64,000 bases of DNA, from sequence record PQ374922.1; one strand, written 5' to 3'. Below, piece after piece: positions 1-11,635 of this stretch; position 1 is the first letter of the stretch; every line of letters begins with the position of its first letter. The stretch comes from a phage. The notes below the pieces were generated by a model that was given only the letters and a program-made list of their open reading frames with translations, was not told the DNA's origin and ran no database searches. A program made the translations under genes and the position numbers.

Positions 1-3000
1 ATGGCTAATAAACCAACACAGCCTGTTTTCCCTCTCGGTCTGGTGGCTGAAGAGCAGTCTACTTTGGCTGGTGTCGTCAACACGGGTACGATTGAGCATG
101 GACCAGATGCTGTCCTGACTTTACCCGAGGGTAATGCCAGCGCAGGACTCCCGTCTTCCGTTCGCTACAATGCCGACTCCGACGAATTTGAGGGCTTCTA
201 TGAAAATGGTGGATGGTTGCCGCTGGGTGGCGGTGGTATCCGCTGGGAAGTCCTTCCGCATGCCTCTACGACAACGCTCACTGAAGGGCGAGGCTATCTC
301 ATTAATAATACCACAGGGGCATCTACAGTGGTTCTCCCTTCCCCTACGCGTATTGGGGATTCCGTTACTATTTGTGATGCTTATGGGAAATTTGCCACTT
401 ACCCATTGACCGTGTCTCCTTCTGGAAATAATTTGTATGGCTCCACTGAAGACATGGCTATAACAACTGATAACGTATCAGCAACGTTCACTTGGTCTGG
501 ACCTGAACAAGGTTGGATTATTACATCCGGCGTCGGTCTTGGCCAAGGTCGCGTCTACAGTCGTGAAATCTTTACAAAAATTTTGGCGTCTGAAACAAGT
601 ACTGTCGCTCTCAATACCCCACCAACAATCGTGGACGTGTATGCTGACGGAAAACGTCTTGCGGAATCCAAATATTCACTAGATGGGAATGTAATCACTT
701 TCAGCCCTTCTTTGCCAGCCAACACAGAACTTCAGGTGATTGAATATACTCCTATTCAATTGGGTAATGGCGGTGGTTCTAGTTCTTCTACGATTACCTG
801 GGTCTATAATGGGGGTTCAGCGATTGGCGGTGAAACCGAAATCACGTTGGACGTCGTTGTTGATGATGTTCCGGCCATTGATATAAACGGAAGTCGCCAG
901 TATAAAAATCTGGGATTCACATTCGATCCATTAACCAGTAAAATCACTCTTGCGCAAGAACTGGAACCAGAGGATGAAGTTGTTGTGATTATAAATGGGA
1001 CACCAAACATTTATAACCAAATCGATCGTTCTTTACAGGAAGTTGCTCGTGCTGCTAACGTTAAAAATAGTGAAGTAATTCTTAGCACTGATATCACTCA
1101 ATTCTTGAATGACAAGAAAGTTGTTTATGATGTTACCGAACAGAAGGCTTATGGCCTACCTTCTTTGCCAACTAACGTTTGTATTGGTTCAGTATCTAAT
1201 GGTCAGCTTACTTATAATCCAGGCAGCATTACCGTAGATTTGATTCCATTGCCTAACTCCGTCGAACTGTTAAGCAATAATTTGATGTCATCTACAGGGT
1301 CTAGCTTCGTTAAGCATGGGGATAAGACTGTAGGGGAAATCTTGGATACCTTATCCAGTGTTCAACTACACTACTCTTCCTTTGCCTCTCTTACGGAGTT
1401 ACATGACTATATCATTAACAATAACCTTACTAACGTGGATATTATTTTTGATAAGGTATTAACTTTAGGTCCAGGCTCTGGTGGGTTAGGAACTCTGTTT
1501 GTACTCAGTAACATGAAGCACCTTGGTATCCACAACCTGGTTATAGATGACACTCTCCTCTATTCTGGTTCGTTTGATTTAACCCGTGTATTCGACCTTG
1601 CTAACATAGGTAATTTATACATGGAGGTAGATGCTACCAGTACCCTGGAATATGTTGGTGATGATAAAAGGGGGCTAACCCCATTACGTTTAAATGGCTG
1701 CGATAATTTTACGTTTATTGGTAAAACTACACGCTGTTATCAAGGTTATGAATGTACTAATGTAAAAAATCTCCATGCTCGTAGTGTGAATAATGATACT
1801 CGCTATCCACATCTTCTTGGTAATGTTGGTACAGTTGATATCCACACAGTTAATAATGGTTGTCGTCGTGACTTCTTCCTGACGAATAATTGTGCTGGGG
1901 GGAAGATTACAGTTGATGCCGTGGATACACAGCAGGGTACACCAATCAAAATGTACTTCTATAATGGGAACATGGACAACCAAATAAGTAACCTGACAAT
2001 TAATTATAAGTACCGTAGCACAGGTCGTTACACACTTCCGTACCGAGTAGCACCAATATGGTTGGATTGGGGCTGGGACAGCACCATAACGGAGTCTATG
2101 GTTGCTGGGCTGATGCGTAACATAACCATCATTTATGATGTCGTCGGGGGGAATTGGGGGAGTGTTATCGGCACAACAAAGCTGATTGATGAGTCTGTAG
2201 CAGACAACAACCCACGTGGCTATGGCTATTCAAATATTGTGATCACCGGACGCATAGAATTGGGGGGTGGGGACTCCAATAATCACGCATGGTTCTTTAA
2301 CTTCAACTCTAATGATAACTGGGTATCAGGAGATACTATTAATGGGTTTATCTGTCGTGACCTGGTGGTCCGGAAGCTGAATGGTGGTGATGTATACGTC
2401 AACACCAATCAGCTTACAGGTGCAGTGACAAATTATGGAGGAGTTAAATTTGAAGGTGTTAGTGCACCAGAAGCTAAGTTAACAGCTACTGATTACAGTA
2501 AAGTAAAATTTGCTAATTGCACGTTTTCTGATTTTGCATCTTTAGGTGCAGCAACTGATTCAAGCAAATGTGCTACGGGTTCCTTGCTGTTTATTAAAGC
2601 TGCTGGAAACCCAGGAAAATTCAAACTTGGAACGGTTAGTACATATCGTAACGTGAGCCTGTGGACCGTTGATGTTGTCGCTAACTCCCCTCTCTCTGGG
2701 GTATCGTCGGCATGGCATGGGCGTTTACAGGGAACACTGGCGATGGCTACAACTCCAGCAGCAAGCACAATGGAAGGTTCAGTACAAAGCTCGTTCACAA
2801 AAGGAACAGCAGCTACGCCGACTATATCAGTCGATGCTAGTGGTAACGTGTTCCTTAACTTTGATGGATGGGACGCACTAGAGGCTAACGTGGCTGTAAA
2901 TGTTAAAATGCAGTATGACGAATACAGTGGCGGAGGCAACAAAACTGTACGTGGTATGTTAAGCAAAGCTAATGGTGGGTTTAGTCTGAACCTTAGTTAA
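1..3000 (+). CDS. Tailspike protein with long N-terminal extension, shared anchor module and beta-rich C-terminal receptor-binding region; may be 5'-truncated by window edge
   Basis: 999-aa ORF starting at window position 1; internal module SEVILSTDITQFLNDKKVVYDVTEQKAYGLPSLPTNV..QLTYNPGSITVDLIPLP is paralogous to modules in the ORFs at 6468 and 9357; GC-hairpin terminator follows. Confidence 0.8.
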   Translation: MANKPTQPVFPLGLVAEEQSTLAGVVNTGTIEHGPDAVLTLPEGNASAGLPSSVRYNADSDEFEGFYENGGWLPLGGGGIRWEVLPHASTTTLTEGRGYLINNTTGASTVVLPSPTRIGDSVTICDAYGKFATYPLTVSPSGNNLYGSTEDMAITTDNVSATFTWSGPEQGWIITSGVGLGQGRVYSREIFTKILASETSTVALNTPPTIVDVYADGKRLAESKYSLDGNVITFSPSLPANTELQVIEYTPIQLGNGGGSSSSTITWVYNGGSAIGGETEITLDVVVDDVPAIDINGSRQYKNLGFTFDPLTSKITLAQELEPEDEVVVIINGTPNIYNQIDRSLQEVARAANVKNSEVILSTDITQFLNDKKVVYDVTEQKAYGLPSLPTNVCIGSVSNGQLTYNPGSITVDLIPLPNSVELLSNNLMSSTGSSFVKHGDKTVGEILDTLSSVQLHYSSFASLTELHDYIINNNLTNVDIIFDKVLTLGPGSGGLGTLFVLSNMKHLGIHNLVIDDTLLYSGSFDLTRVFDLANIGNLYMEVDATSTLEYVGDDKRGLTPLRLNGCDNFTFIGKTTRCYQGYECTNVKNLHARSVNNDTRYPHLLGNVGTVDIHTVNNGCRRDFFLTNNCAGGKITVDAVDTQQGTPIKMYFYNGNMDNQISNLTINYKYRSTGRYTLPYRVAPIWLDWGWDSTITESMVAGLMRNITIIYDVVGGNWGSVIGTTKLIDESVADNNPRGYGYSNIVITGRIELGGGDSNNHAWFFNFNSNDNWVSGDTINGFICRDLVVRKLNGGDVYVNTNQLTGAVTNYGGVKFEGVSAPEAKLTATDYSKVKFANCTFSDFASLGAATDSSKCATGSLLFIKAAGNPGKFKLGTVSTYRNVSLWTVDVVANSPLSGVSSAWHGRLQGTLAMATTPAASTMEGSVQSSFTKGTAATPTISVDASGNVFLNFDGWDALEANVAVNVKMQYDEYSGGGNKTVRGMLSKANGGFSLNLS

Positions 3001-3004
3001 TAAA

Positions 3005-3030
3005 ATTCCCCTCTTCGGAGGGGATCTTGT
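3005..3030 (+). terminator. Rho-independent terminator-like hairpin (cccctc-ttcg-gagggg) followed by T-rich tract
   Basis: Perfect 6-bp GC stem with UUCG-type loop directly after the stop at 3000. Confidence 0.6.
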
Positions 3031-3063
3031 TATACCTTTGTTCATAAATTTGATTAGTTCAGA

Positions 3064-3074
3064 CTAAATACCCC
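3064..3074 (+). promoter_or_regulatory. Late-promoter-like motif CTAAATACCCC
   Basis: Recurring box about 30 nt upstream of late-gene ATGs; here followed by complementary TATGGGGTA near the RBS. Confidence 0.6.
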
Positions 3075-3103
3075 ATATTGGACATCCTTTATGGGGTATT
3101 ATC

Positions 3104-6100
3104 ATGATTTCTCAATTCAATCAACCACGCGGCTCCACTTCCATAGAAGTTAACAAACAATCTATCGCTCGAAATTTCGGTGTCAAAGAAGACGAAGTCG
3201 TTTATTTCACTGCTGGTATTGATCTCAGTGGATTTAAAGTAATTTATGATGAGTCTACCCAACGGGCCTATTCTCTTCCTTCAGGTATTGTTTCAGGAAC
3301 GACTGCGATAAGTCTGAACGGACAAGCCATCCTCACTCATTCCGCTGGTTCTGTTGACCTCGGAGAATTAGCCGTATCCCGTGAGGAATATGTTACATTG
3401 CCTGGTTCATTTGATACAGGTGTAACTGTTAATTGTAAGAATGAATTAGTTGTCTTTACCGAGGGCAAGTACCGCTGGGATGGTGAATTACCTAAAGAAG
3501 TTCCTGCTGGTTCGACTCCTGAATCGTCTGGCGGCATTGGTGATGGGAAATGGGTCGGTGTTGGGGATGTGGCACTGCGTGGACAGATTTCAGACCCCGA
3601 GGGTGCAACAAAATATCCTGAACTACAAATGGCTCGCTGGCGTGATAATGGCGATCCGCGTGGATGGGGTGTTAAAGGTGATGCTGTACATGATGATACA
3701 GCAGCATTAACGAGCGTATTAAACGACACACCGGTTGGACAAAAGATTAATGGCAATGGGAAGACATATAAGGTCACATCCCTGCCTGACATTAGTAGAT
3801 TCGTCAATACTCGTTTTGTATATGAACGTATTCCTGGTCAGCCGCTTTATTATGCCTCTGAAGAATTTGTTCAGGGTGAGCTGTTCAAAATAACGGACAC
3901 CCCTTATTACAATGCGTGGCCACAAGATAAAGCGTTCGTTTACGACGATGTTATTTACTGTCCGTTCATGGCTAGTGATAGACATGGGGTTAGCAGGCTG
4001 CATGTATCCTGGGTTCGTTCAGGGGATGACGGACAGACCTGGACAACCCCGGAGTGGTTAACCGACCTACATCCTGACTATCCGACAGTTAACTACCACT
4101 GCATGAGTATGGGGGTGATGCGTAATCGTCTCTTTGCGATGATTGAGACCCGTACATTGGCATCTAACGCACTGGTAACCTGTGAGTTGTGGGATCGCCC
4201 CATGTCCCGTAACTACCATCCGACAGGCGGTATCACTAAAGCCGCCAACCAGCCTGTGGCTGTAATTACTATCCCTGAACACGGTCTTTTTGCTGGGGAT
4301 TTTGTTAACTTCTCAAACTCTGGGGTGACTGGAGTTTCAGGGAATATGACTGTAACTTCAGTTATTGACCGCAACACTTTCACAGTTACCACGCCAAATC
4401 AACAGGCGTTTGACCAAAATAATTCTGCCAGCCGTTGGCATATGGGTACATCGTTCCATGAGTCGCCGTGGCGTAAAACCAGCCTTGGGTTAATCCCAAT
4501 GGTGACTGAAGTTCATAGTTTTACCGCCATCAATAATGATTCATTCATGATGGGGTATCACCAAGGTGATGTTGCTCCTCGTGAAGTTGGCATGTTGTAT
4601 TTCCCGGATGCGTTTAATAACCCGGGTTTATACCAAAAACGTCGTATTCCTGCTGATTATGAACCTGATGCGGCAGAGCCTTGCGTTAAATATTTTGATG
4701 GCGTTCTTTATGTCTTAACTCGTGGTACTCGTTCAGATCGTTTGGGGAGTTCGTTGCATCGTAGTCATGATTTGGGCATGACTTGGGAATCACTCAGATT
4801 TCCTAATAATGTTCACCACTCTACGTTGCCGTTCGCTAAAGTCGGTAATGAACTAATCATTTTCGCCACAGAGCGTGCTGATAACGAATGGGAAGCCAAT
4901 GTACCTGATCAACGATACTTTACTTCTTATCCACGAACGTTCTACACGCGAGTGAACCTAGACACCTGGAACCTGGATAATACTCAGTGGGTGAATATCA
5001 CTGACCAGATTTATCAGGGCGGTATTGTCAACTCTGGAGTCGGTGTTGGCTCAGTGGTTGTTAAGGATAGTTATATCTATTACATGTTCGGTGGGGAAGA
5101 CCATCTGAACCCCTGGACATATGGAGATAACTCAGCGAAAGACCCATTCAAATCAGATGGTCATCCCTCAGATTTGTATTGCTACAAAATGAAGATTGGC
5201 CCAGACAATCGTGTTTCCAGGGATTTCAGATATGGTGCTGTACCTGACAGAGCTGTTCCCGTGTTTTTTGATACGAATGGGGTTCGCACTGTCCCTGCGC
5301 CAATGGAATTTACAGGAGATTTGGGTTTAGGTCATGTGACCCTTAGGGCCAGCACCAGTAATAACATTCGCTCTGAAATGCTACTGGAAGGCGAGTATGG
5401 GTTTATTGGGAAATCTGTACCTACTAATAACCCAGCAGGACAGCGCACCATATTTTGCGGTGGAGAAGGAACCAGTTCTTCTACTGGTGCACAGATTACG
5501 CTTTACGGTGCGAATAACACAGCTTCTCGCAGGATAGTTTACAACGGAGCTGAGCACCTGTTCCAGACTGCTGATGTTAAGCCTTATAACGATAACGCTA
5601 TTGCTCTTGGTGGGCCCAGCAACCGTTTCACCACTGCATACCTCGGAAGCAACCCTATTGTTACTTCTAACGGAGAGAAGAAAACGGAGCCGGTAGTTTT
5701 TGATGATGCTTTCCTGGATGCCTGGGGTGACGTTCACTACATCATGTACCAGTGGTTAGATGCTGTTCAACTGAAAGGCAATGAAGCTCGTATTCACTTC
5801 GGGGTTATTGCTCAGCAAATTCGTGATGTATTCATTGCACATGGTCTGATGGACGAAAACAGTACGGATTGTCGTTATGCCGTTCTGTGCTATGACAAGT
5901 ATCCACGGATGACCGATATGGTATTTTCGCACAATGAAATCGTTGAACACACTGACGAGGAGGGTAATGTCACCACCACGGAAGAGCCTGTATTCACTGA
6001 GGTGGTTATTCACGAAGAGGGTGAGGAGTGGGGCGTGCGGCCTGACGGAATTTTCTTTGCTGAAGCTGCTTATCAGCGAAGAAAACTGGAAAGAATCGAA

Positions 6101-6130
6101 GCCAGACTTTCTGCTCTTGAACAGAAGTAA
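3104..6130 (+). CDS. Tailspike protein with sialidase-like beta-propeller (two Asp-box motifs) and C-terminal intramolecular chaperone-like domain
   Basis: 1008 aa; Asp-boxes SGDDGQTW (4019-4042) and SHDLGMTW (4763-4786); N-terminal anchor-like module; acidic C-terminal ~150 aa (about 5680-6130) resembling self-cleaving tail-fibre chaperone domains. Confidence 0.8.
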   Translation: MISQFNQPRGSTSIEVNKQSIARNFGVKEDEVVYFTAGIDLSGFKVIYDESTQRAYSLPSGIVSGTTAISLNGQAILTHSAGSVDLGELAVSREEYVTLPGSFDTGVTVNCKNELVVFTEGKYRWDGELPKEVPAGSTPESSGGIGDGKWVGVGDVALRGQISDPEGATKYPELQMARWRDNGDPRGWGVKGDAVHDDTAALTSVLNDTPVGQKINGNGKTYKVTSLPDISRFVNTRFVYERIPGQPLYYASEEFVQGELFKITDTPYYNAWPQDKAFVYDDVIYCPFMASDRHGVSRLHVSWVRSGDDGQTWTTPEWLTDLHPDYPTVNYHCMSMGVMRNRLFAMIETRTLASNALVTCELWDRPMSRNYHPTGGITKAANQPVAVITIPEHGLFAGDFVNFSNSGVTGVSGNMTVTSVIDRNTFTVTTPNQQAFDQNNSASRWHMGTSFHESPWRKTSLGLIPMVTEVHSFTAINNDSFMMGYHQGDVAPREVGMLYFPDAFNNPGLYQKRRIPADYEPDAAEPCVKYFDGVLYVLTRGTRSDRLGSSLHRSHDLGMTWESLRFPNNVHHSTLPFAKVGNELIIFATERADNEWEANVPDQRYFTSYPRTFYTRVNLDTWNLDNTQWVNITDQIYQGGIVNSGVGVGSVVVKDSYIYYMFGGEDHLNPWTYGDNSAKDPFKSDGHPSDLYCYKMKIGPDNRVSRDFRYGAVPDRAVPVFFDTNGVRTVPAPMEFTGDLGLGHVTLRASTSNNIRSEMLLEGEYGFIGKSVPTNNPAGQRTIFCGGEGTSSSTGAQITLYGANNTASRRIVYNGAEHLFQTADVKPYNDNAIALGGPSNRFTTAYLGSNPIVTSNGEKKTEPVVFDDAFLDAWGDVHYIMYQWLDAVQLKGNEARIHFGVIAQQIRDVFIAHGLMDENSTDCRYAVLCYDKYPRMTDMVFSHNEIVEHTDEEGNVTTTEEPVFTEVVIHEEGEEWGVRPDGIFFAEAAYQRRKLERIEARLSALEQK

Positions 6131-6135
6131 TAAAC

Positions 6136-6166
6136 AAAACCCCGCTTCGGCGGGGTTAGTTTTTAC
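6136..6166 (+). terminator. Rho-independent terminator (aaaccccgcttcggcggggtt + T-tract)
   Basis: 8-bp GC stem, UUCG loop, T-run; same hairpin sequence recurs near 24378 and 31115. Confidence 0.7.
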
Positions 6167-6172
6167 TTATTA

Positions 6173-6430
6173 ATAATACTTTTTATATAGAGTTTACTGT
6201 TTGCATTACCCTTACTGATACAGCAGTTAAGGTAATAGTCTGACCTGATATGTTGAACATACCTAACTGTATACCATCCACCATGAAAGGGTCTGCTGAA
6301 CCTAGTGTGTAAGTAGCTAAAACGTTATCCCTGTTGGCTATATCTACACCCTGAACTTTGGTACTGGCATCTGAACCTACTATTGTAGTTCCATTGGTTC
6401 TCCTTGTTATACCTTTGTTCATAAATTTAT
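6173..6430. repeat. Copy A of ~240-bp intergenic direct repeat
   Basis: About 85% identical to 11305-11525 by eye; carries an intact 79-codon minus-strand ORF. Confidence 0.6.
6183..6422 (-). CDS. Small hypothetical protein (79 aa) encoded inside the repeat element; possibly a relic
   Basis: Intact ORF in copy A only; no convincing RBS; second copy is frameshifted. Confidence 0.25.
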   Translation of the reverse strand: MNKGITRRTNGTTIVGSDASTKVQGVDIANRDNVLATYTLGSADPFMVDGIQLGMFNISGQTITLTAVSVRVMQTVNSI

Positions 6431-6439
6431 TAGTTCAGA

Positions 6440-6450
6440 CTAAATACCCC
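6440..6450 (+). promoter_or_regulatory. Late-promoter-like motif CTAAATACCCC
   Basis: Same box and downstream TATGGGGTA complement as at 3064; leader nearly identical to that of the 3104 gene. Confidence 0.6.
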
Positions 6451-6467
6451 ATATTAGCAAATCCTCT

Positions 6468-8912
6468 ATGGGGTATCTTCAAATGACCAGAAACGTCGAG
6501 AGCATCTTTGGAGCGGTCGTAACAGCTCCGCACCAGATTCCATACACTTACACAGCAACGGGCGGAGAGAAGTTTATCTCCCTCCCTTTCTACCCTGTCA
6601 CGGGTATAGTCACAATCAACGGTGGTATGCAAGTTCCGTTAGACAACTTTGAAATCGATGGAAATACGTTGAATCTCGGGTGTGCATTATCCAAAGGTGA
6701 CGTTGTGTTCTGTCTGTTTGATAAGATTCTGTCTCCAGAAGATTATAAAACCGGGATTCGAATCTATAAGTTTCAGGCTATAGGAGGTGAAACCGAGTTC
6801 ACTCCTGATTACACATCTTATGGAGTCCAATCTCTTTATATCGGTGGTGAGTACAAAACACCCGAAATTGAATATTCCTATGACAGCACGACAGGGAAAG
6901 TGACTTTACAAACTGCGCTGACTGCAGGCGTTTGGGTAGTCGCTGAAATGTCTGTTAAACAACCGAATATCAGTCCGTTGTTTGACCGAAGTATTCAAGA
7001 AATCGCCCGTTCAGCTAATGTAAAAGATTCTGAAGTAATTCTTAGTACTGACACTACGCAATTATTGAATGGTAAAAAGATTGTCTACTCTGTTAGTGAG
7101 CAGAAGTCATATGGTTTACCTGTATTACCAGCGAATGTATATATTCAGTCTGTTAATGCAGGTAAGTTAACATATTCCCCTGGCGAAATTGTTGTTGATC
7201 TACTTCCTGTACCATCTTCAGTAAGAGATGAGCTGACTGCATATAAAGCGGATTTAGCTAGTGATTCCGGTGCAAGTAAGATTGGTATTAAGATTTCTTT
7301 GCCTGGGACAATTTCTCGTACATTGCAGGAACGGGCAGAAGATAGTGTTAGTGTCAAAGATTTTGGTGCAGTGCCTAATCTTACAACAGATAGTACTTAC
7401 GCCATTCAAGCTGCAATTGATGCGACTCCGTCTGGAGGTACTTTAGGTTTCTATGGCGGACCCTATAGGTTTGGTACTGTTACCGTGGACAAACCTATTA
7501 CACTAGTTGGAGATGCAGACTTGCAGTTTGAGTGTATTCGTATCAAAACAAGTAAGTTTCATAGTTTCTTGACAGGGACACTTACTGCTGCGAGATATGA
7601 CAACGCATGTCGTGCATTTCAAATATTGGCCTATGAAGACGGTAGAGACTATGAGGACATCAAGGTACATGGTGCACGTTTCGAGGGTTTCTTCTATAAC
7701 ACAGACTTCCGAGGTCGCTCTTACGATGCGTCAGAAAGCGATCCTACTAACAGAGTAGTTCGTGACACCTCTATTATGGGCTGTACTTCAGTTCAGCCTA
7801 AAGATGGTAAAGATAGAGGCCACTTTCAACACGTAGGTGTGACCAATGCCAAGTGCATAGGTAACTCGACGTATGGTGGCAAGAATGCTACTTCTTATAA
7901 CTTCATTAATGGTAACGGCTCTTTGGTGGTTATTGGTAACTATGACCATGACAATGAATATGGATCCTTAGAGATTGAGAATAACCAGATAAGCTACGGT
8001 GTTGTTACTGGTAATATCTTCCATAAACAGCTATGGATAGATGATACTAGCAACATTAACGTAATAGGTAACACCTGCACGGATAGGATTTTCATTACTG
8101 CACAATCTAACAACTCTGAGAACGTATCAGTAGTAGGAAACAATGTACCTCGCATCTACGTCAGTAAGTTTGGTCAAAGCCCAACAGGTCGTCACCGTAA
8201 CTTGACTATACGTGGCAACCATATCACTGGCAAGGATGTTCCTAACTGTATATTCTTAGATGATTCTATTGATTCCGCTTCTATTGAGGGTAATGATTGT
8301 TATGGTGTGTCTGGTGTTAGAGGTATAGCCATTACTCGCCATTCCGGTGCTAACTATACGGTGCGTCATAATAACTTACATGGCACTAACTTACTCTTTA
8401 GTGGTTCAGGCGGCAAAGTTTATAGTTATGACAACTTTGATGTTGGGGTTGATGAATCCCCTGTTATAAACAGAACTGACGCAATGCACATTGACAACCT
8501 TCTTCGTGTAAATGAAGAATACCTTGATTTGCCAGGAAAGTACCTATACAAATCTAAGTATGCAGGAGAAATTGCACAAGGTGGGTCAGTTACTATTGAG
8601 TTACCTGTATCAACAAGTGGTACTTTGTCTTTCCGTGGTCTTAGTCTGTGGGTTCTTATCCGTAACGTTTCTACAGGAAACTTTTCTTCCTATCGTGTCG
8701 ATGGAAGGCATGCAGTATTTGGCTCCTCTGTTACTGTTAGCTTTGGTGATAAATATGGAGCAGTAGGAGTAAATACTGGCGATATTACTGTTAGTGATGA
8801 TTCCTCCACAGCTAATCTTATTCGTATCAAGGTAATCAATGGGCACGTAGATCAAACAATGCAAGTGACAGTCATACCAGAGGTAACGAGCAGACTTGGG
8901 ACTGAAGAGTGA
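6468..8912 (+). CDS. Tailspike protein, pectate-lyase-like beta-helix type (true start may be ATG at 6483)
   Basis: 814 aa; anchor module SEVILSTDTTQLLNGKKIVYSVSEQKSYGLPVLPANV; VKDFGAV..TDSTYAIQAAIDA beta-helix entry motif. Confidence 0.8.
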   Translation: MGYLQMTRNVESIFGAVVTAPHQIPYTYTATGGEKFISLPFYPVTGIVTINGGMQVPLDNFEIDGNTLNLGCALSKGDVVFCLFDKILSPEDYKTGIRIYKFQAIGGETEFTPDYTSYGVQSLYIGGEYKTPEIEYSYDSTTGKVTLQTALTAGVWVVAEMSVKQPNISPLFDRSIQEIARSANVKDSEVILSTDTTQLLNGKKIVYSVSEQKSYGLPVLPANVYIQSVNAGKLTYSPGEIVVDLLPVPSSVRDELTAYKADLASDSGASKIGIKISLPGTISRTLQERAEDSVSVKDFGAVPNLTTDSTYAIQAAIDATPSGGTLGFYGGPYRFGTVTVDKPITLVGDADLQFECIRIKTSKFHSFLTGTLTAARYDNACRAFQILAYEDGRDYEDIKVHGARFEGFFYNTDFRGRSYDASESDPTNRVVRDTSIMGCTSVQPKDGKDRGHFQHVGVTNAKCIGNSTYGGKNATSYNFINGNGSLVVIGNYDHDNEYGSLEIENNQISYGVVTGNIFHKQLWIDDTSNINVIGNTCTDRIFITAQSNNSENVSVVGNNVPRIYVSKFGQSPTGRHRNLTIRGNHITGKDVPNCIFLDDSIDSASIEGNDCYGVSGVRGIAITRHSGANYTVRHNNLHGTNLLFSGSGGKVYSYDNFDVGVDESPVINRTDAMHIDNLLRVNEEYLDLPGKYLYKSKYAGEIAQGGSVTIELPVSTSGTLSFRGLSLWVLIRNVSTGNFSSYRVDGRHAVFGSSVTVSFGDKYGAVGVNTGDITVSDDSSTANLIRIKVINGHVDQTMQVTVIPEVTSRLGTEE

Positions 8913-9061
8913 TGCCATTAATCAAGTCAGTTAAGCAAAGTGCTGTACGCCGGAACGCAGAAGAACTCATCAAGGAAGAGTGTGACCCTAAGCAGGCTTA
9001 CGCCATTGCTAAGGATGTACAACGTCGTGCAATGAAGAAACCTTCTGTATCTTCTGCGTAA
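8912..9061 (+). CDS. Small hypothetical ORF (49 aa) translationally coupled to the upstream tailspike gene
   Basis: ATG overlaps the upstream stop (TGATG); basic helical-looking product; below the ORF-track size cut-off. Confidence 0.2.
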   Translation: MPLIKSVKQSAVRRNAEELIKEECDPKQAYAIAKDVQRRAMKKPSVSSA

Positions 9062-9356
9062 GCAGGTTAATATCTTAGTGTACACAAGGGCAGACCTATG
9101 ATAGCTCACAGCACACCTATGAGTGCCGCTCTGGAGTCTATGACTTGTTCCCTGACTATCTAGGTTTGCTCTTAGTGTATTCCAAGTATTAATATGAAAG
9201 GTTGGTGTAACATTGTAGGAGGGAATGGATGGTTATTGTATCTAGTAAGAGGAAAAGTCTAGATAAGATAATGCATACTGGCCTACGCTACCGTGTACTT
9301 ACCTAGTTATAAGACCCCGCTGAAGCGAGGTCTTCTAGAAAAACAAAGAGGTTGCT

Positions 9357-11264
9357 ATGAACGAGATGTTCTCTCAAGGTGGTAAAGGCTCTACGGGTAT
9401 TCTTACCAATATACAAGCCATTGCTCGTGCATGTAACGTAGCAGAAGGTAAAGTTATTCTCAGTACGAATACTAATACATTGCTAGATGATAAGACTGTA
9501 CTCTTCGATCGTAATGCTAAGAAGATATGGACTTTACCTACTCTCCCCTCCGGGGCAACCATTGCTAATGTAAATGGTGACCAATTAACCTATAACCCAG
9601 GAGGTATTACCGTTAGTCTACTTCCTGCACCAAATGACATTGCTGTACGAGTTAATGAAGCCATTACAGCAGTATATGACGAACTGGCTTCTAACACTGG
9701 CTCTAGTAAGGTTGGTCACATTACCGGACGTGTTGGTGAAGTTGCTCGCACTGTACAGGCTGCATTAGGTGATTGGGTAAGTCTGAAGGACTTTGGTGCA
9801 GTAGGTGATGGGATTACCGATGACACTGATGCTATTCAGGCTATGGTTGCTTGGGTAAACTCCCGAGCCAAATACTCTGCACCCATTTCTGTTATCTTTC
9901 CTGCTGGTCATTATAAGTACACTACTGGTATAAACTTTACACGCCCTGTAGCAGTATATGGTTTTCAGTCAGCTACTCTGGACTACTCAGGTACAGGTGC
10001 AGCAATGTACTTAGGTGACCCAACTCCAGAAGATGCACCTACTGCTGATAACTTTTATCAGTCTGAATACACTATAGAGGGTCTGCGATTCACTGGTGGT
10101 GTGCAAGCAGGTTTCGGTATTTTCATTAAGTCCTTCGTATTCACACCTAGAATCAGATACTGCATCTTTATGGACTATGGTAACTCTGCAACCTATGACA
10201 TCTATTCTCAGTATGAGAACTGGGATGGAATCATTGAGTGTTGTGAGAAACATACCTACTTCAGTACAGTAGCAACTGGTAGTTTCATAGCTCTCCTTGG
10301 CAAGAAGACTGATGGTAGTGCCTATGATGGTGGTAACTCACGATTTACCATACGTGACTGCTCAATGGGTGCATACGATAACCAAGACTTAGGTTACTTT
10401 GCATATATCAACTCTACATTGTGCCGTGTAATCGGAGGTAACGCACACCACTGTACCGGAGGTATTCTCCTTGGACCAAATGCTCACGGTGCTATTATTG
10501 ATGGATACTACACAGAGGTGAGTACAGCTGTACGACCTTGGATGGTTTCAGTGCTTAGTGACAAGACTAATCCTGCAAACTACCTTTTCCCACAGAGTGT
10601 ACGAATCCGTAACTGTTACATCAACATGCATAGCGAGAAGATAGGGAATAACGGTCGCATCATCGGAATGATGGATGGTAACGTTAAGTTACGTGATTGG
10701 GTAGTAGAGGATATTGCTGTTAGTACATTTGCTAATGGGCAGGTTCTGATTGATATGAACAACCTTGATGAACAGGTTAATAACACCTTTGCGCGAATTA
10801 ATCCTGTATTCATCCCTTATAACTCAGGTGCGGGTGCTAAATTCACTGTTGTCAATAACCCACCATTATCACCAAATGCATGGACATCCTCTGATGTTAT
10901 AGAAGGTACATGGACCCCTTCTGTAGGTGGTAATGCCACTTACAACATTCAGAAGGGTAAGTACCGTAAGGAAGGTCGTAAGGTAACAGTAGAGTTTGAT
11001 ATTCATATCAATACTATTGGTACAGGAAATCAGTCAGCAATTTTAGGTCTGCCTTTTGCGTGTGGTGATTCCACAGGTACAGGTAGTGTAAGCTACTATG
11101 CTGAACTTGCCTTACCTGTTTATGGTTTGTATATCCGAGTAGATGCACTAAGCTCCGATATTACAATCTCTGCATCCACAGCCTCAGCAGCGGGTATCTC
11201 TGGTTCTGTTGCAGCACTGGGGAATAATTCACGAATCATGGGTACATTGGTTTACTTTGTATAA
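9357..11264 (+). CDS. Tailspike protein, pectate-lyase-like beta-helix type
   Basis: 635 aa; N-terminal anchor module KVILSTNTNTLLDDKTVLFDRNAKKIWTLPTLP..QLTYNPGGITVSLLPAP; LKDFGAVGDGITDDTDAIQAMVAW motif; RBS aaagagg. Confidence 0.75.
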   Translation: MNEMFSQGGKGSTGILTNIQAIARACNVAEGKVILSTNTNTLLDDKTVLFDRNAKKIWTLPTLPSGATIANVNGDQLTYNPGGITVSLLPAPNDIAVRVNEAITAVYDELASNTGSSKVGHITGRVGEVARTVQAALGDWVSLKDFGAVGDGITDDTDAIQAMVAWVNSRAKYSAPISVIFPAGHYKYTTGINFTRPVAVYGFQSATLDYSGTGAAMYLGDPTPEDAPTADNFYQSEYTIEGLRFTGGVQAGFGIFIKSFVFTPRIRYCIFMDYGNSATYDIYSQYENWDGIIECCEKHTYFSTVATGSFIALLGKKTDGSAYDGGNSRFTIRDCSMGAYDNQDLGYFAYINSTLCRVIGGNAHHCTGGILLGPNAHGAIIDGYYTEVSTAVRPWMVSVLSDKTNPANYLFPQSVRIRNCYINMHSEKIGNNGRIIGMMDGNVKLRDWVVEDIAVSTFANGQVLIDMNNLDEQVNNTFARINPVFIPYNSGAGAKFTVVNNPPLSPNAWTSSDVIEGTWTPSVGGNATYNIQKGKYRKEGRKVTVEFDIHINTIGTGNQSAILGLPFACGDSTGTGSVSYYAELALPVYGLYIRVDALSSDITISASTASAAGISGSVAALGNNSRIMGTLVYFV

Positions 11265-11280
11265 CGCGTGACATTACTAA

Positions 11281-11310
11281 AAGCCCCCAATTAAGGGGGC
11301 TTTTCTTATA
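11281..11310 (+). terminator. Rho-independent terminator (aagcccccaattaagggggctttt)
   Basis: GC-rich stem plus T-tract after stop at 11264. Confidence 0.65.
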
Positions 11311-11525
11311 TAGAGTTTACCGTTTGCATTACCCTAATTGATACTGCTGTCAGGGTGATTACTTGCCCAGATATATTAAACATACCTAGTTGAATACCAT
11401 CCACCATGAAAAGGGTCAGTTGAACCAAGCGTGTAAGTAGCTAATACATTATCCCTGTTAGCAATGTCCGTTTTATACTAGCGTCTGAACCTACTACTGT
11501 AGTTCCATTGGTTCATCCCATTCTC
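11305..11525. repeat. Copy B of ~240-bp intergenic direct repeat (degenerate; internal ORF disrupted)
   Basis: Alignable by eye to 6173-6430; extra A in the homopolymer breaks the ORF found in copy A. Confidence 0.55.
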
Positions 11526-11635
11526 TTGCTGTACCACCACAAATAGCAGAGGTCTTGAATCCATGACCATAACCACAGAAAGATAATCAAAGACCCTTCG
11601 GACTTATTTCTTTCTATTCCTCGGTTGGTTGTATA

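What the first reader, a model, noticed from the sequence alone, without database searches (positions are those of the whole stretch)
6173..11525. ~240-bp direct repeat after two tailspike genes, one copy with an intact antisense ORF
Sequence after the tailspike stops at 6130 and 11264 is about 85% identical by eye (about 6173-6430 and 11305-11525), each preceded by a strong terminator. Copy A encodes an intact 79-codon minus-strand ORF (6183-6422); copy B has a 1-nt insertion that breaks it. The 3' ~45 nt of the element plus the late-promoter box also recur before the 3104 gene (about 3027-3075). These could be recombination linkers for tailspike swapping or relics of a duplicated small gene.
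Basis: seen in the sequence. Interest (0 to 1): 0.5.

Follow-up and report, generated by a model that had tools for sequence, protein, structure and literature searches.

The report
Borrowed-gene scraps beside swapped tailspike genes
The two repeat copies are dead 3' fragments of a gene from an unrelated phage family (N4-like Gamaleyavirus) that were carried in along with imported tailspike genes, so they are scars showing how and from where this phage acquired new host-recognition genes.

Summary
The repeat is real: 6180-6400 matches 11303-11514 at 78.8% identity counting gaps (about 83% without), E 6.5e-53. Each copy follows a strong two-way terminator. It is neither a dedicated linker nor a duplicated small gene. 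Both copies are the truncated 3' end (residues ~135-208 and ~126-208) of a 208-codon gene, phrog_17779, with a predicted TNF-like jelly-roll fold. In Gamaleyavirus podophages this gene lies tail-to-tail with the tailspike gene gp63.1. It is full-length only in Schitoviridae; every Ackermannviridae hit is a fragment. The window is a YX22-like Ackermannviridae genome. Its segment 6996-11334 is 97.35% identical to Gamaleyavirus St11Ph5 and ends inside copy B. The two copies differ in terminator type and right-hand junction, have dS ~1, and each has closer relatives elsewhere, so they are independent imports. The "intact" 79-codon ORF is a chimera: its ATG and first five codons are the antisense of a conserved Ackermannviridae intergenic box, it has no Shine-Dalgarno sequence, and it encodes half a fold. 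In the related phage PC3, a recombination breakpoint with Gamaleyavirus nithesis lies inside the fragment, so it can serve as a homology arm. This is ordinary in kind but informative in detail.

The parts
3638..6141 (+). Receptor-binding part and C-terminal chaperone domain of the endosialidase tailspike gene (whole gene 3104-6130), which lies upstream of copy A. This part is shared with phages of other families.
   Evidence: Pfam finds the endosialidase domains, Tail_spike_N and Peptidase_S74. The segment is 90.8% identical to the Gamaleyavirus UE-S5a endosialidase and about 82% identical to K1F. Bases 5573-6163 are 96% identical to IME207-like contigs in which the same terminator is native.
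6138..6157 (.). Two-way intrinsic terminator hairpin (type I). It is the joint between the endosialidase cassette and copy A.
   Evidence: 8-bp GC-rich stem with T-runs on both strands; -16.1 kcal/mol, z -4.0. The hairpin is identical in pSb-1 (downstream of its gene gp18, next to the parent gene's 3' end) and downstream of the endosialidase in L034-L036.
6180..6408 (-). Copy A: the 3' fragment (residues 135-208) of the Gamaleyavirus TNF-like gene (phrog_17779; pSb-1 gp17 / Bp4 orf14).
   Evidence: 83.5% identical to pSb-1, 81.7% to Bp4, and 89.3% to the Gamaleyavirus metagenomic contig L033. The PHROG match has E 3e-36 and covers profile positions 136-207 of 208. The right junction sits at the 6-nt microhomology CTTGTT (6403-6408).
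6183..6422 (-). Chimeric 79-codon ORF. The first five codons (MNKGI) come from the antisense of the Ackermannviridae intergenic box; the remaining 74 codons come from copy A.
   Evidence: The same ATGAACAAAGGTATAACAAG sequence occurs in the fragment-free box at 3026-3051. There is no Shine-Dalgarno sequence in the 20 nt upstream. Other fragments lack any equivalent start codon.
6403..6476 (+). Conserved Ackermannviridae inter-tailspike box. The second copy, at 3026-3099, follows its terminator (3007-3024) directly, so that slot shows the fragment-free state.
   Evidence: 93% identity between the two copies. The box is present upstream of tailspike genes in about 246 phage records.
6996..11334 (+). 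Block shared with Gamaleyavirus St11Ph5. It contains the C-terminal two-thirds of the tailspike gene at 6468-8912 (gp66-type), a 50-codon ORF, the whole tailspike gene at 9357-11264 (gp63.1-type), the terminator, and the first ~30 nt of copy B.
   Evidence: One BLAST segment of 4339 nt at 97.35% identity. Near-identity begins at about 7096. The window is nearly identical to YX22 from ~3900 up to about 7000. St11Ph5 itself has most of the parent gene deleted, which is why the match stops at 11334.
11279..11304 (.). Two-way terminator hairpin (St11Ph5 variant of type II) between the tailspike gene and copy B.
   Evidence: 10-bp stem, -17.5 kcal/mol, z -4.7, with U-runs on both strands. The sequence is identical in St11Ph5.
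11303..11540 (-). Copy B: a decayed 3' fragment (residues ~126-208) of the same Gamaleyavirus gene. It carries +1, -10 and -13 nt lesions.
   Evidence: 83.6-84.5% identical to pSb-1, 81% to Bp4, 85.5% to the fragment in fGh-Ecl02. The alignments show the indels. The longest remaining ORF is 40 codons.
11533..11586 (+). Last ~55 nt, including the TAA stop at 11584-11586, of an older resident Agtrevirus-type tailspike gene. It was displaced when the Gamaleyavirus cassette first arrived. Copy B joins it at the microhomology ACCA(C/G)CAC.
   Evidence: Matches the 3' end of the vB_CECAV_050 tail-protein gene. LHE287 retains about 190 nt of it. fGh-Ecl02 has the same junction.

Best explanation
Both repeat copies are hitch-hiking pseudogene fragments. 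They are evolutionary scars, not working parts.

**Where the fragments come from.** In Gamaleyavirus (G7C-like, N4-like podophages), a 208-codon gene for a TNF-like jelly-roll protein of unknown function lies tail-to-tail with the tailspike gene gp63.1 and shares a two-way terminator with it. When Ackermannviridae myophages captured Gamaleyavirus tailspike cassettes, the left crossover was homologous, in the conserved 5' anchor region of the tailspike genes. The right join fell by illegitimate, microhomology-mediated recombination inside that neighbouring gene. Its last ~230-275 nt therefore came along.

**How this applies to the window.**
- Copy B (after the tailspike gene at 9357-11264) sits at a slot where the scar is old and shared with at least 8 other Ackermannviridae phages. 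Here it flanks a recently imported St11Ph5-like block.
- Copy A (after the endosialidase gene) is a separate import of a different allele. It is joined to the resident intergenic box at CTTGTT and to the endosialidase cassette at the shared terminator hairpin.

**What happens afterwards.** Once present, a fragment provides about 250 nt of homology with any Gamaleyavirus that still has the gene. It can then act as the right-hand arm for further cassette exchange. Meanwhile it decays by short-repeat-mediated deletions.

**Shown versus inferred.** Shown: homology, truncation, the junction sequences, the St11Ph5-like block, and a breakpoint inside the fragment in PC3. Inferred: the direction and order of events, and that the crossover in this window's own lineage lay inside copy B.
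For: 1. **Parent gene.** Copy A and copy B match the 3' end of pSb-1 gp17 and Bp4 orf14 at 81-84% nucleotide identity and about 90% amino-acid identity. The PHROG match is phrog_17779.

2. **Distribution.** tblastn finds full-length copies only in ~70-74-kb Schitoviridae genomes. Every listed Ackermannviridae hit is partial: residues 129-208, 135-208, 139-208 or 174-208.

3. **Flanking tailspikes are shared with Gamaleyavirus.** Window 6996-11334 is 97.35% identical to St11Ph5. In A221, RPN242 and PC3, the last tailspike gene plus the fragment is 93-97% identical to nithesis tailspike plus parent-gene 3' end, with homology starting exactly at the truncation junction.

4. **Junction sequences.**
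 - CTTGTT for copy A; the donor-like allele L033 reads TCTCCTTGTTTGTG.
 - CCTGA for the ancestral slot-B join, into the last ~215 nt of a CECAV_050-type resident tailspike gene.
 - The later junction variants are consistent with deletion at short repeats.

5. **Independent origin of A and B.** They have different terminator types and different junctions, dS about 1.0, and closer relatives elsewhere (A-L033 89%, B-fGh-Ecl02 85.5%, A-B 78.8%).

6. **Not a maintained gene.**
 - dN/dS of 0.02-0.18 equals that between functional alleles, so the substitutions predate truncation.
 - Frameshifts or truncations occur in copy B, SKML-39, fGh-Ecl02, YX22 slot B and CAU_YEP3; LHE287 and the A221 group each carry a 1-nt deletion near the junction.
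 - A221, RPN242 and PC3 have no start codon for the fragment.
 - The fragment is only the C-terminal part (residues 135-208) of a jelly roll that spans residues ~55-208.

7. **Use as a homology arm.** In the PC3 / RPN242 / nithesis comparison, informative sites run as 22 RPN242-like sites, then 35 of 36 nithesis-like sites, then RPN242-like again. The switch falls between L008 3683 and 3692, inside the fragment (Fisher p 5e-22, post hoc).
Against: - No donor was found that carries the St11Ph5-type gp63.1 together with an undeleted parent gene. The crossover in the window's own slot B is therefore only bounded, to 11334-11536.
- For copy A, the known Gamaleyavirus that carries an endosialidase (UE-S5a) has it in the gp66 slot, not next to the parent gene. 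Whether the endosialidase and copy A arrived together is unknown.
- The same truncation junction is shared by alleles with dS of 0.5-1.0 and dN/dS of about 0.05. That requires repeated overwriting of the fragment from functional donors, which is plausible but demonstrated only once (PC3).
- Low dN/dS and the intact frame of copy A are also what a functional mini-gene would show.
Confidence: 0.88

Rival explanations
1. The fragments are selected 3' homology arms, meaning true recombination linkers. On this view they are retained because they raise the rate at which the phage captures new Gamaleyavirus tailspike cassettes.
For: - A recombination breakpoint lies inside the fragment in PC3 versus nithesis.
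- The same junction persists across phages with different tailspikes and deeply divergent fragment alleles.
- Published work proposes conserved up- and downstream motifs as recombination hotspots for receptor-binding-protein genes (PMC10408124).
Against: - Only 9 other Ackermannviridae phages listed (four weaker records not shown) carry a fragment, against the ~246 records that carry the intergenic box.
- Slot A carries it only in YX22 and this window.
- The fragments are being lost by deletion: 105-nt stubs remain in YX22 slot B and CAU_YEP3, and copy B has three indels.
- Gamaleyavirus genomes themselves lose the gene (St11Ph5, ZQ2, PE007, EC1-UPM, ECBP1).
- Cassette swaps also occur without the fragment, as the stacked remnants in AV101 show.
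Confidence: 0.1
2. Copy A encodes a functional 79-residue antisense protein, a truncated TNF-like mini-protein, and copy B is its recently inactivated paralogue.
For: - The frame is intact and has an ATG.
- dN/dS is 0.06-0.09 against functional alleles.
- Many independently truncated ORFs of 66-101 aa that keep the same C-terminus are called in metagenomes.
Against: - The ATG and first five codons come from the antisense of a box present in ~246 phage records.
- There is no Shine-Dalgarno sequence and no credible promoter. The only weak -35/-10 match lies inside the ORF.
- The fragment is only the C-terminal part (residues 135-208) of a jelly roll that spans residues ~55-208.
- Only YX22 shares the ORF. 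Most fragments in other Ackermannviridae genomes in the phage collection lack a start codon or are frameshifted.
- The exact protein is not on record in the assembly collection searched with the look-up of encoding contigs.
- The low dN/dS is explained by recent descent from functional donor genes.
- The metagenomic ORFs are an ascertainment artefact, because only intact frames are called as genes.
Confidence: 0.04
3. The two copies arose by duplication within this genome of a terminator-plus-spacer unit during expansion of the tailspike gene array.
For: The two copies occupy analogous positions after tailspike genes in one genome.
Against: - The terminator hairpins differ.
- The right junctions differ: CTTGTT into the box for copy A, versus ACCA(C/G)CAC into an old tailspike tail for copy B.
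- dS is about 1.0 between the copies.
- Copy A is closer to L033 (89%) and to YX22 slot B (90% over 160 nt) than to copy B (78.8%); copy B is closer to fGh-Ecl02 (85.5%).
- Related phages carry slot B alone.
Confidence: 0.03
4. The repeat is a structured RNA or cis-regulatory element, such as a 3'-UTR or antisense RNA, conserved at the nucleotide level.
For: It lies in intergenic DNA between a terminator and the next gene's upstream region.
Against: - No Rfam family reaches threshold anywhere in the window.
- Folding energy is no better than shuffled sequence on either strand (z +0.95 and +0.17).
- Substitutions are overwhelmingly synonymous in the minus-strand frame, which is the signature of protein-coding ancestry.
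Confidence: 0.02

Closest known systems
Conserved DNA motifs flanking receptor-binding-protein genes, proposed as cross-genus recombination hotspots. 'Motif three' is a ~20-nt terminator-like motif downstream of these genes in Gamaleya-, Kutter- and Justusliebigviruses (Pas et al. 2023, Virol J, PMC10408124).
   Same: The sequence lies downstream of tailspike genes and is shared between Gamaleyavirus and Ackermannviridae. The terminator hairpin at 6138-6157 is exactly such a shared joint: it is native both after an endosialidase gene in IME207-like contigs and next to the parent gene's 3' end in pSb-1.
   Different: The repeat body is about 230 nt beyond the terminator, and it is a truncated coding sequence of a neighbouring donor gene rather than a short motif. 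It is present in only a few Ackermannviridae genomes. The paper does not describe it.
The Gamaleyavirus gene phrog_17779 (pSb-1 gp17, Bp4 orf14, UE-S5a gene 13). It is annotated as 'hypothetical', 'tail needle knob' or 'protease'.
   Same: Sequence homology covers the last 74-83 codons. The orientation and position relative to a gp63.1-type tailspike and its two-way terminator are the same.
   Different: The window copies lack the first 125-134 codons, the native start and the promoter. Copy B is frameshifted. The predicted TNF-like jelly roll (residues ~55-208) cannot be complete.
Homologous exchange of tailspike genes through the conserved 5' anchor (XD/TD) domains in Ackermannviridae (Sorensen et al. 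2021 and 2024, PMC8432352 and PMC11414711). The same branched tailspike architecture is shared with G7C.
   Same: The left boundary of the St11Ph5-like block (about 7000-7100) falls in a region homologous between YX22-type and gp66-type genes. The 5' ~100 nt of the gene at 9357 is 88-91% identical in both families.
   Different: Those studies address the 5' arm and exchange of the receptor-binding domains. They do not mention intergenic remnants. Here the 3' side is resolved, and it fixes the direction of transfer as podophage to myophage.
Gene remnants and illegitimate-recombination scars at module boundaries in mosaic phage genomes. This is a general concept from comparative phage genomics, cited from my own knowledge.
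   Same: Truncated donor genes joined at 5-7-nt microhomologies. They are stacked with a remnant of the displaced resident gene (11533-11586).
   Different: Nothing differs in kind. This is a particularly clean example spanning two phage families.

Membership tests
phrog_17779 / Gamaleyavirus TNF-like gene (as a gene fragment) | Significant sequence match to the family profile | tested here: met
   The copy A ORF matches with E 3e-36, aligning to profile positions 136-207 of 208. tblastn and BLASTN matches to pSb-1, Bp4, UE-S5a and nithesis agree.
phrog_17779 / Gamaleyavirus TNF-like gene (as an intact member) | Full-length ~204-212-residue protein containing the whole jelly-roll domain (residues ~55-208) | tested here: not met
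   Copy A covers only residues 135-208. Copy B covers ~126-208 and has three frame-breaking indels.
phrog_17779 / Gamaleyavirus TNF-like gene (genomic context) | Convergent with, and immediately downstream of, a gp63.1-type tailspike gene, across a shared two-way terminator | tested here: met
   This arrangement is seen in pSb-1, Bp4, UE-S5a, nithesis and L033 and at both window copies.
Functional small protein-coding gene | Start codon with a ribosome-binding site, and conservation of the ORF in relatives | tested here: not met
   The ATG derives from the intergenic box and there is no Shine-Dalgarno sequence. Other fragments lack a start codon or are frameshifted. Only YX22 shares the ORF.
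Rho-independent (intrinsic) terminator | GC-rich hairpin followed by a U-run | tested here: met
   Hairpins at 6138-6157 and 11279-11304 have z-scores of -4.0 to -4.7, with U-runs on both strands. Termination activity itself was not tested.
Cross-genus recombination motif downstream of receptor-binding-protein genes ('motif three', PMC10408124) | A ~20-nt terminator-like non-coding motif downstream of these genes, shared across genera | tested here: inconclusive
   The hairpin AAACCCCGCTTCGGCGGGGTT is shared between unrelated cassettes. The published motif logo is in a figure or supplement that I could not read, so identity with 'motif three' is not verified.
Mobile element (MITE, IS element or homing-endonuclease footprint) | Terminal inverted repeats, target-site duplication, or an associated nuclease or transposase | tested here: not met
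   No inverted repeats bracket either copy. The ends of each copy are fully accounted for by a terminator on one side and a microhomology junction on the other.
Structured non-coding RNA | Match to a known RNA family, or folding stability beyond that of shuffled sequence | tested here: not met
   There are no Rfam hits in the window. z-scores are +0.95 and +0.17.

The most novel reading that the evidence does not exclude
The pseudogene fragment is more than a passive scar. On this reading it is maintained in a subset of E. coli-infecting Ackermannviridae because it acts as a dedicated 3' 'landing pad'. Together with the conserved 5' anchor region, it would let these myophages capture whole host-recognition modules from N4-like podophages at elevated frequency, making this an evolvability device kept by second-order selection. 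That the fragment has been used as a crossover site at least once is well supported (PC3 and nithesis). That it is retained for this reason is the unproven part.
Probability: 0.1. Interest if true: 0.6.

Novelty: new member of a known kind. Interest (0 to 1): 0.35.

Why it matters
**What the fragments reveal.** They give a direction and a mechanism for host-range evolution across phage families.
- Only the donor family has the full gene, so the fragments show that DNA flowed from Gamaleyavirus podophages into Ackermannviridae myophages.
- They show that the first capture used one homologous crossover and one illegitimate crossover.
- They show that later exchanges can use the scar as a homology arm.

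**Biology of this phage.** It appears to have combined a K1 endosialidase with both receptor-binding proteins of an St11Ph5-like phage. St11Ph5 was isolated on an O5ab uropathogenic E. coli strain.

**Practical consequences.**
- Annotators should not call 6183-6422, or the similar small ORFs in fGh-Ecl02, ECBP1 and AV101, as genes.
- Engineers swapping Ackermannviridae tailspikes could use such flanks as natural homology arms.

Tried and rejected
1. **Donor of copy B.** I looked for a Gamaleyavirus with St11Ph5-type gp63.1 and an undeleted parent gene.
 - The search for related loci in the viral contigs returned only matches to the N-terminal anchor domain.
 - Exact-pattern scans for the St11Ph5-type terminator, in viral and metagenome contigs, hit unrelated phages.
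 - The contig encoding P0003, a truncated variant with an St11Ph5-like N-terminal sequence, is only 80% identical to copy B.
 - The crossover inside copy B therefore could not be mapped.

2. **Donor with endosialidase, type I terminator and parent gene together.** The pattern scan found only IME207-like contigs, in which the terminator is followed by an unrelated convergent gene.

3. **Exact-sequence look-up of the 79-aa ORF.** It is not on record.

4. **Pfam on the parent protein.** No family matched.

5. **Context of distant homologues.** Homologues in CLB_P1, PAT1 and Klebsiella phage H01 are not next to tailspike genes, so linkage to tailspikes is specific to Gamaleyavirus.

6. **RNA explanations.** Rfam and folding z-scores were both negative.

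7. **Sigma-70 promoter scan.** It found fewer sites than in shuffled sequence and nothing convincing for the antisense ORF.

8. **Rejected interpretations.** These were intragenomic duplication, a mobile element, and a functional mini-gene, for the reasons given under the rival explanations.
Full report
**1. Observation**

The repeat exists.
- BLASTN aligns 6180-6400 with 11303-11514 over 222 columns, with 36 mismatches and 11 gap columns. That is 78.8% identity (about 83% over ungapped columns), E 6.5e-53.
- No further copy occurs in the 64-kb window.
- Each copy follows a strong hairpin with U-runs on both strands: 6138-6157 (-16.1 kcal/mol, z -4.0) and 11279-11304 (-17.5 kcal/mol, z -4.7).
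- Copy A carries an open 79-codon minus-strand ORF at 6183-6422.
It also has a 10-nt deletion (between 11469 and 11470) and a 13-nt deletion (between 11517 and 11518).
- The stretch that recurs before the gene at 3104 (3026-3099 versus 6403-6476, 93%) is real. It is a different entity, however: a conserved inter-tailspike box found in about 246 phage records.

**2. What the window is**

- The window is an Ackermannviridae (Aglimvirinae) genome, closest to Escherichia phage YX22. The two differ by 0-2 bases per 100 nt from about 3900 to about 7000, and are 98.3% identical from 11536 onward.
- Four tailspike-type genes (1-3000, 3104-6130, 6468-8912, 9357-11264) precede a VriC-like gene.
- The gene at 3104-6130 is a K1F-type endosialidase with a Tail_spike_N anchor and a Peptidase_S74 chaperone domain.

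**3. What the repeat is**

- The body of both copies is 81-84% identical in DNA, and about 90% identical in protein, to the 3' end of a minus-strand gene of about 208 codons. That gene lies immediately downstream of, and convergent with, the tailspike gene in Gamaleyavirus (G7C-like N4-like podophages).
- The parent gene is seen in pSb-1 (gp17), Bp4 (orf14), UE-S5a and nithesis. The family is phrog_17779, of unknown function, with no Pfam match.
- An AlphaFold model (pLDDT 74.5) gives a TNF/C1q-like jelly roll over residues ~55-208. The best PDB matches are the Sf6 and HS1 tail-needle knobs, TNF-like lectins and PRD1 P5.
- tblastn against 50,697 phage records finds full-length copies only in ~70-74-kb Schitoviridae. 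More distant homologues of the domain alone occur in some T7-like, Uetakevirus, Aeromonas and Klebsiella phages.
- Every listed Ackermannviridae hit is a C-terminal fragment: residues 129-208 (A221, RPN242, PC3, PH4, LHE287, SKML-39), 135-208 (YX22, equivalent to copy A), 139-208 (fGh-Ecl02) and 174-208 (CAU_YEP3).
- Because only the podophage family has the full gene, the direction of transfer is podophage to myophage.

**4. The neighbouring tailspike genes are shared with Gamaleyavirus**

- Window 6996-11334 is a single 4339-nt BLAST segment, 97.35% identical to St11Ph5. Near-identity begins at about 7096.
- This block contains the C-terminal two-thirds of gp66, a 50-codon ORF, all of gp63.1, the terminator and the first ~30 nt of copy B.
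- The match stops at 11334 only because St11Ph5 has itself deleted most of the parent gene.
- In A221, RPN242 and PC3, the last tailspike gene plus the fragment is 93-97% identical to the nithesis tailspike plus parent-gene 3' end. Homology starts exactly at the truncation junction.
- The endosialidase is 90.8% identical to that of Gamaleyavirus UE-S5a. Its last 590 nt plus terminator are 96% identical to IME207-like contigs, in which the same hairpin is native.

**5. Junction anatomy**

Copy A:
- The parent gene reads ...GGTTCTCCTTGTTTGTG... in the closest donor-like allele, the Gamaleyavirus contig L033 (89.3% over 6138-6408).
- The resident box reads ...GGGGATCTTGTTATACC..., as at 3020-3036.
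- Copy A reads ...GGTTCTCCTTGTTATACC.... The join is therefore at the 6-nt microhomology CTTGTT, 6403-6408.
- On the left, the sequence up to the hairpin is endosialidase-type and the sequence after it is pSb-1-type. The joint is therefore the shared hairpin.

Slot B:
- LHE287 preserves the longest, presumably oldest, layout. Its fragment runs to residue ~118 and is joined at CCTGA to about 190 nt that match the 3' end of a vB_CECAV_050-type Agtrevirus tail-protein gene. That gene's own stop codon and terminator follow.
- The shorter forms are consistent with deletions at short repeats:
 - the junction in A221, RPN242, PC3 and SKML-39;
 - the ACCA(C/G)CAC junction shared by the window and fGh-Ecl02;
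 - the 105-nt stubs at AATGG in YX22 slot B and CAU_YEP3.
- In the window, 11533-11586 is the tail of that displaced resident gene, including its TAA stop at 11584-11586.

**6. Two imports, not a duplication**

- Copies A and B have different terminators and different right junctions.
- dS between them is about 1.0, with dN/dS 0.04.
- Each is closer to sequences elsewhere than to the other: A to L033 89%, A to YX22 slot B 90% over 160 nt, B to fGh-Ecl02 85.5%, and A to B 78.8%.
- Both terminator types occur in Gamaleyavirus.

**7. Is the ORF a gene?**

I judge that it is not.
- Its ATG and the codons MNKGI are the reverse complement of the conserved box. The same bases stand at 3026-3051, where no long ORF follows. 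The 20 nt upstream contain no Shine-Dalgarno sequence.
- The product would be only the C-terminal part of a jelly roll (residues 135-208 of a domain spanning ~55-208).
- Among the other fragments:
 - A221, RPN242 and PC3 have an open frame but no start codon before residue 176.
 - Copy B, SKML-39 and fGh-Ecl02 are frameshifted.
 - LHE287 and the A221 group each carry a 1-nt deletion near the junction.
 - YX22 slot B and CAU_YEP3 are stubs.
- Pairwise Nei-Gojobori dN/dS over the last 74 codons is 0.02-0.18 for any comparison involving a fragment. It is 0.08-0.17 between full-length genes, with dS of 0.3-1.4.
- Substitutions therefore accumulated while the sequences were parts of working genes, and the fragments are young or repeatedly refreshed.
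- The many 66-101-aa ORFs in metagenomes that keep this C-terminus have unrelated N-termini, created by different deletions. They were found only because intact frames get called as genes.
- RNA-level explanations are unsupported. There is no Rfam hit, folding z-scores are +0.95 and +0.17, and the substitution pattern is codon-like.

**8. Does the scar serve as a linker?**

In a limited sense, yes.
- In PC3, informative sites in the comparison with RPN242 (Ackermannviridae) and nithesis (Gamaleyavirus) run as 22 RPN242-like sites, then 35 of 36 nithesis-like sites (L008 3692-4606), then RPN242-like sites again.
- The first switch, between 3683 and 3692, lies inside the fragment, about 55-63 nt from the parent gene's stop codon (Fisher p 5e-22, post hoc).
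- Persistence of one junction across phages with different tailspikes and deeply divergent fragment alleles points the same way.
- However, only 9 other Ackermannviridae phages listed carry any fragment, and slot A is filled only in YX22 and this window.
- The fragments are visibly being deleted, and the donor family is also losing the gene (St11Ph5, ZQ2, PE007, EC1-UPM, ECBP1).
- I therefore rate 'selected linker' at about 0.1, and 'by-product that can be reused' as the best reading.

**9. Relation to the literature**

- Conserved 5' anchor domains as recombination sites, and exchange of receptor-binding domains with distant phages, are established for Ackermannviridae (PMC11414711).
- Pas et al. 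2023 described a ~20-nt terminator-like motif downstream of receptor-binding-protein genes, shared by Gamaleya- and Kutterviruses, and proposed it as a recombination hotspot (PMC10408124).
- None of the papers I read mentions the ~230-nt gene fragment or the remnant of the displaced tailspike gene.
- The kind of thing is well known: module-boundary scars in mosaic phages. This instance and its junction-level reconstruction appear to be new.

**10. Limits**

- The donor of copy B's interior was not found, so the crossover in this lineage is only bounded to 11334-11536.
- Whether the endosialidase arrived together with copy A or was swapped in later at the terminator is open.
- No expression data exist.
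- The function of the parent gene is unknown beyond its predicted fold.

Noticed in passing
window 6996-11334: A 4.3-kb block, 97.35% identical to the podophage St11Ph5, carries both of its receptor-binding proteins. As a result the gene at 6468-8912 is a chimera, with an Ackermannviridae N-terminus up to about 7000-7100 and a gp66-type C-terminus. St11Ph5 was isolated on an O5ab uropathogenic E. coli strain.
   Followed up: yes
window 11533-11586: The last ~55 nt and the stop codon of an older, displaced Agtrevirus-type tailspike gene survive between copy B and the VriC-like gene. LHE287 keeps about 190 nt of it. AV101 keeps a similar remnant, annotated there as a 41-aa hypothetical protein.
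   Followed up: yes
window 3308-3800: The window and YX22 differ by 0-2 bases per 100 nt over most of 3100-7000, but differ by about 20-34 bases per 100 nt in this patch of the endosialidase gene's anchor/neck region. This looks like another small recombination patch.
   Followed up: no
L004 (St11Ph5) 5940-6060; L014-L017 (ZQ2, PE007, EC1-UPM, ECBP1): The donor family is itself losing the TNF-like gene. Several Gamaleyavirus genomes keep only the last 25-110 nt next to the tailspike terminator, so the gene is dispensable there.
   Followed up: partly
L011 (fGh-Ecl02) 3516-3659; L017 (ECBP1) 2501-2635: Small ORFs inside these fragments are annotated as hypothetical proteins in GenBank records. 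One is noted there as 'similar to protease'. They are probably pseudogene pieces.
   Followed up: partly
P0030 / alignment A2 (parent protein): The parent protein is predicted to have a TNF/C1q-like jelly-roll fold resembling phage tail-needle knobs and bacterial TNF-like lectins. It is the only gene on the opposite strand within the Gamaleyavirus late-gene stretches retrieved here, and its role is unknown.
   Followed up: partly
window 11469/11470 and L010 (SKML-39), same site: Copy B has a 10-nt deletion and SKML-39 an 11-nt deletion at the same GTACC...GTACC short direct repeat. This suggests a slippage hotspot.
   Followed up: no
window 1-64000: No Rfam family reaches its gathering threshold anywhere in the window. 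That includes the HDV-like ribozymes recently reported from Ackermannviridae, which I saw only in a literature listing.
   Followed up: no
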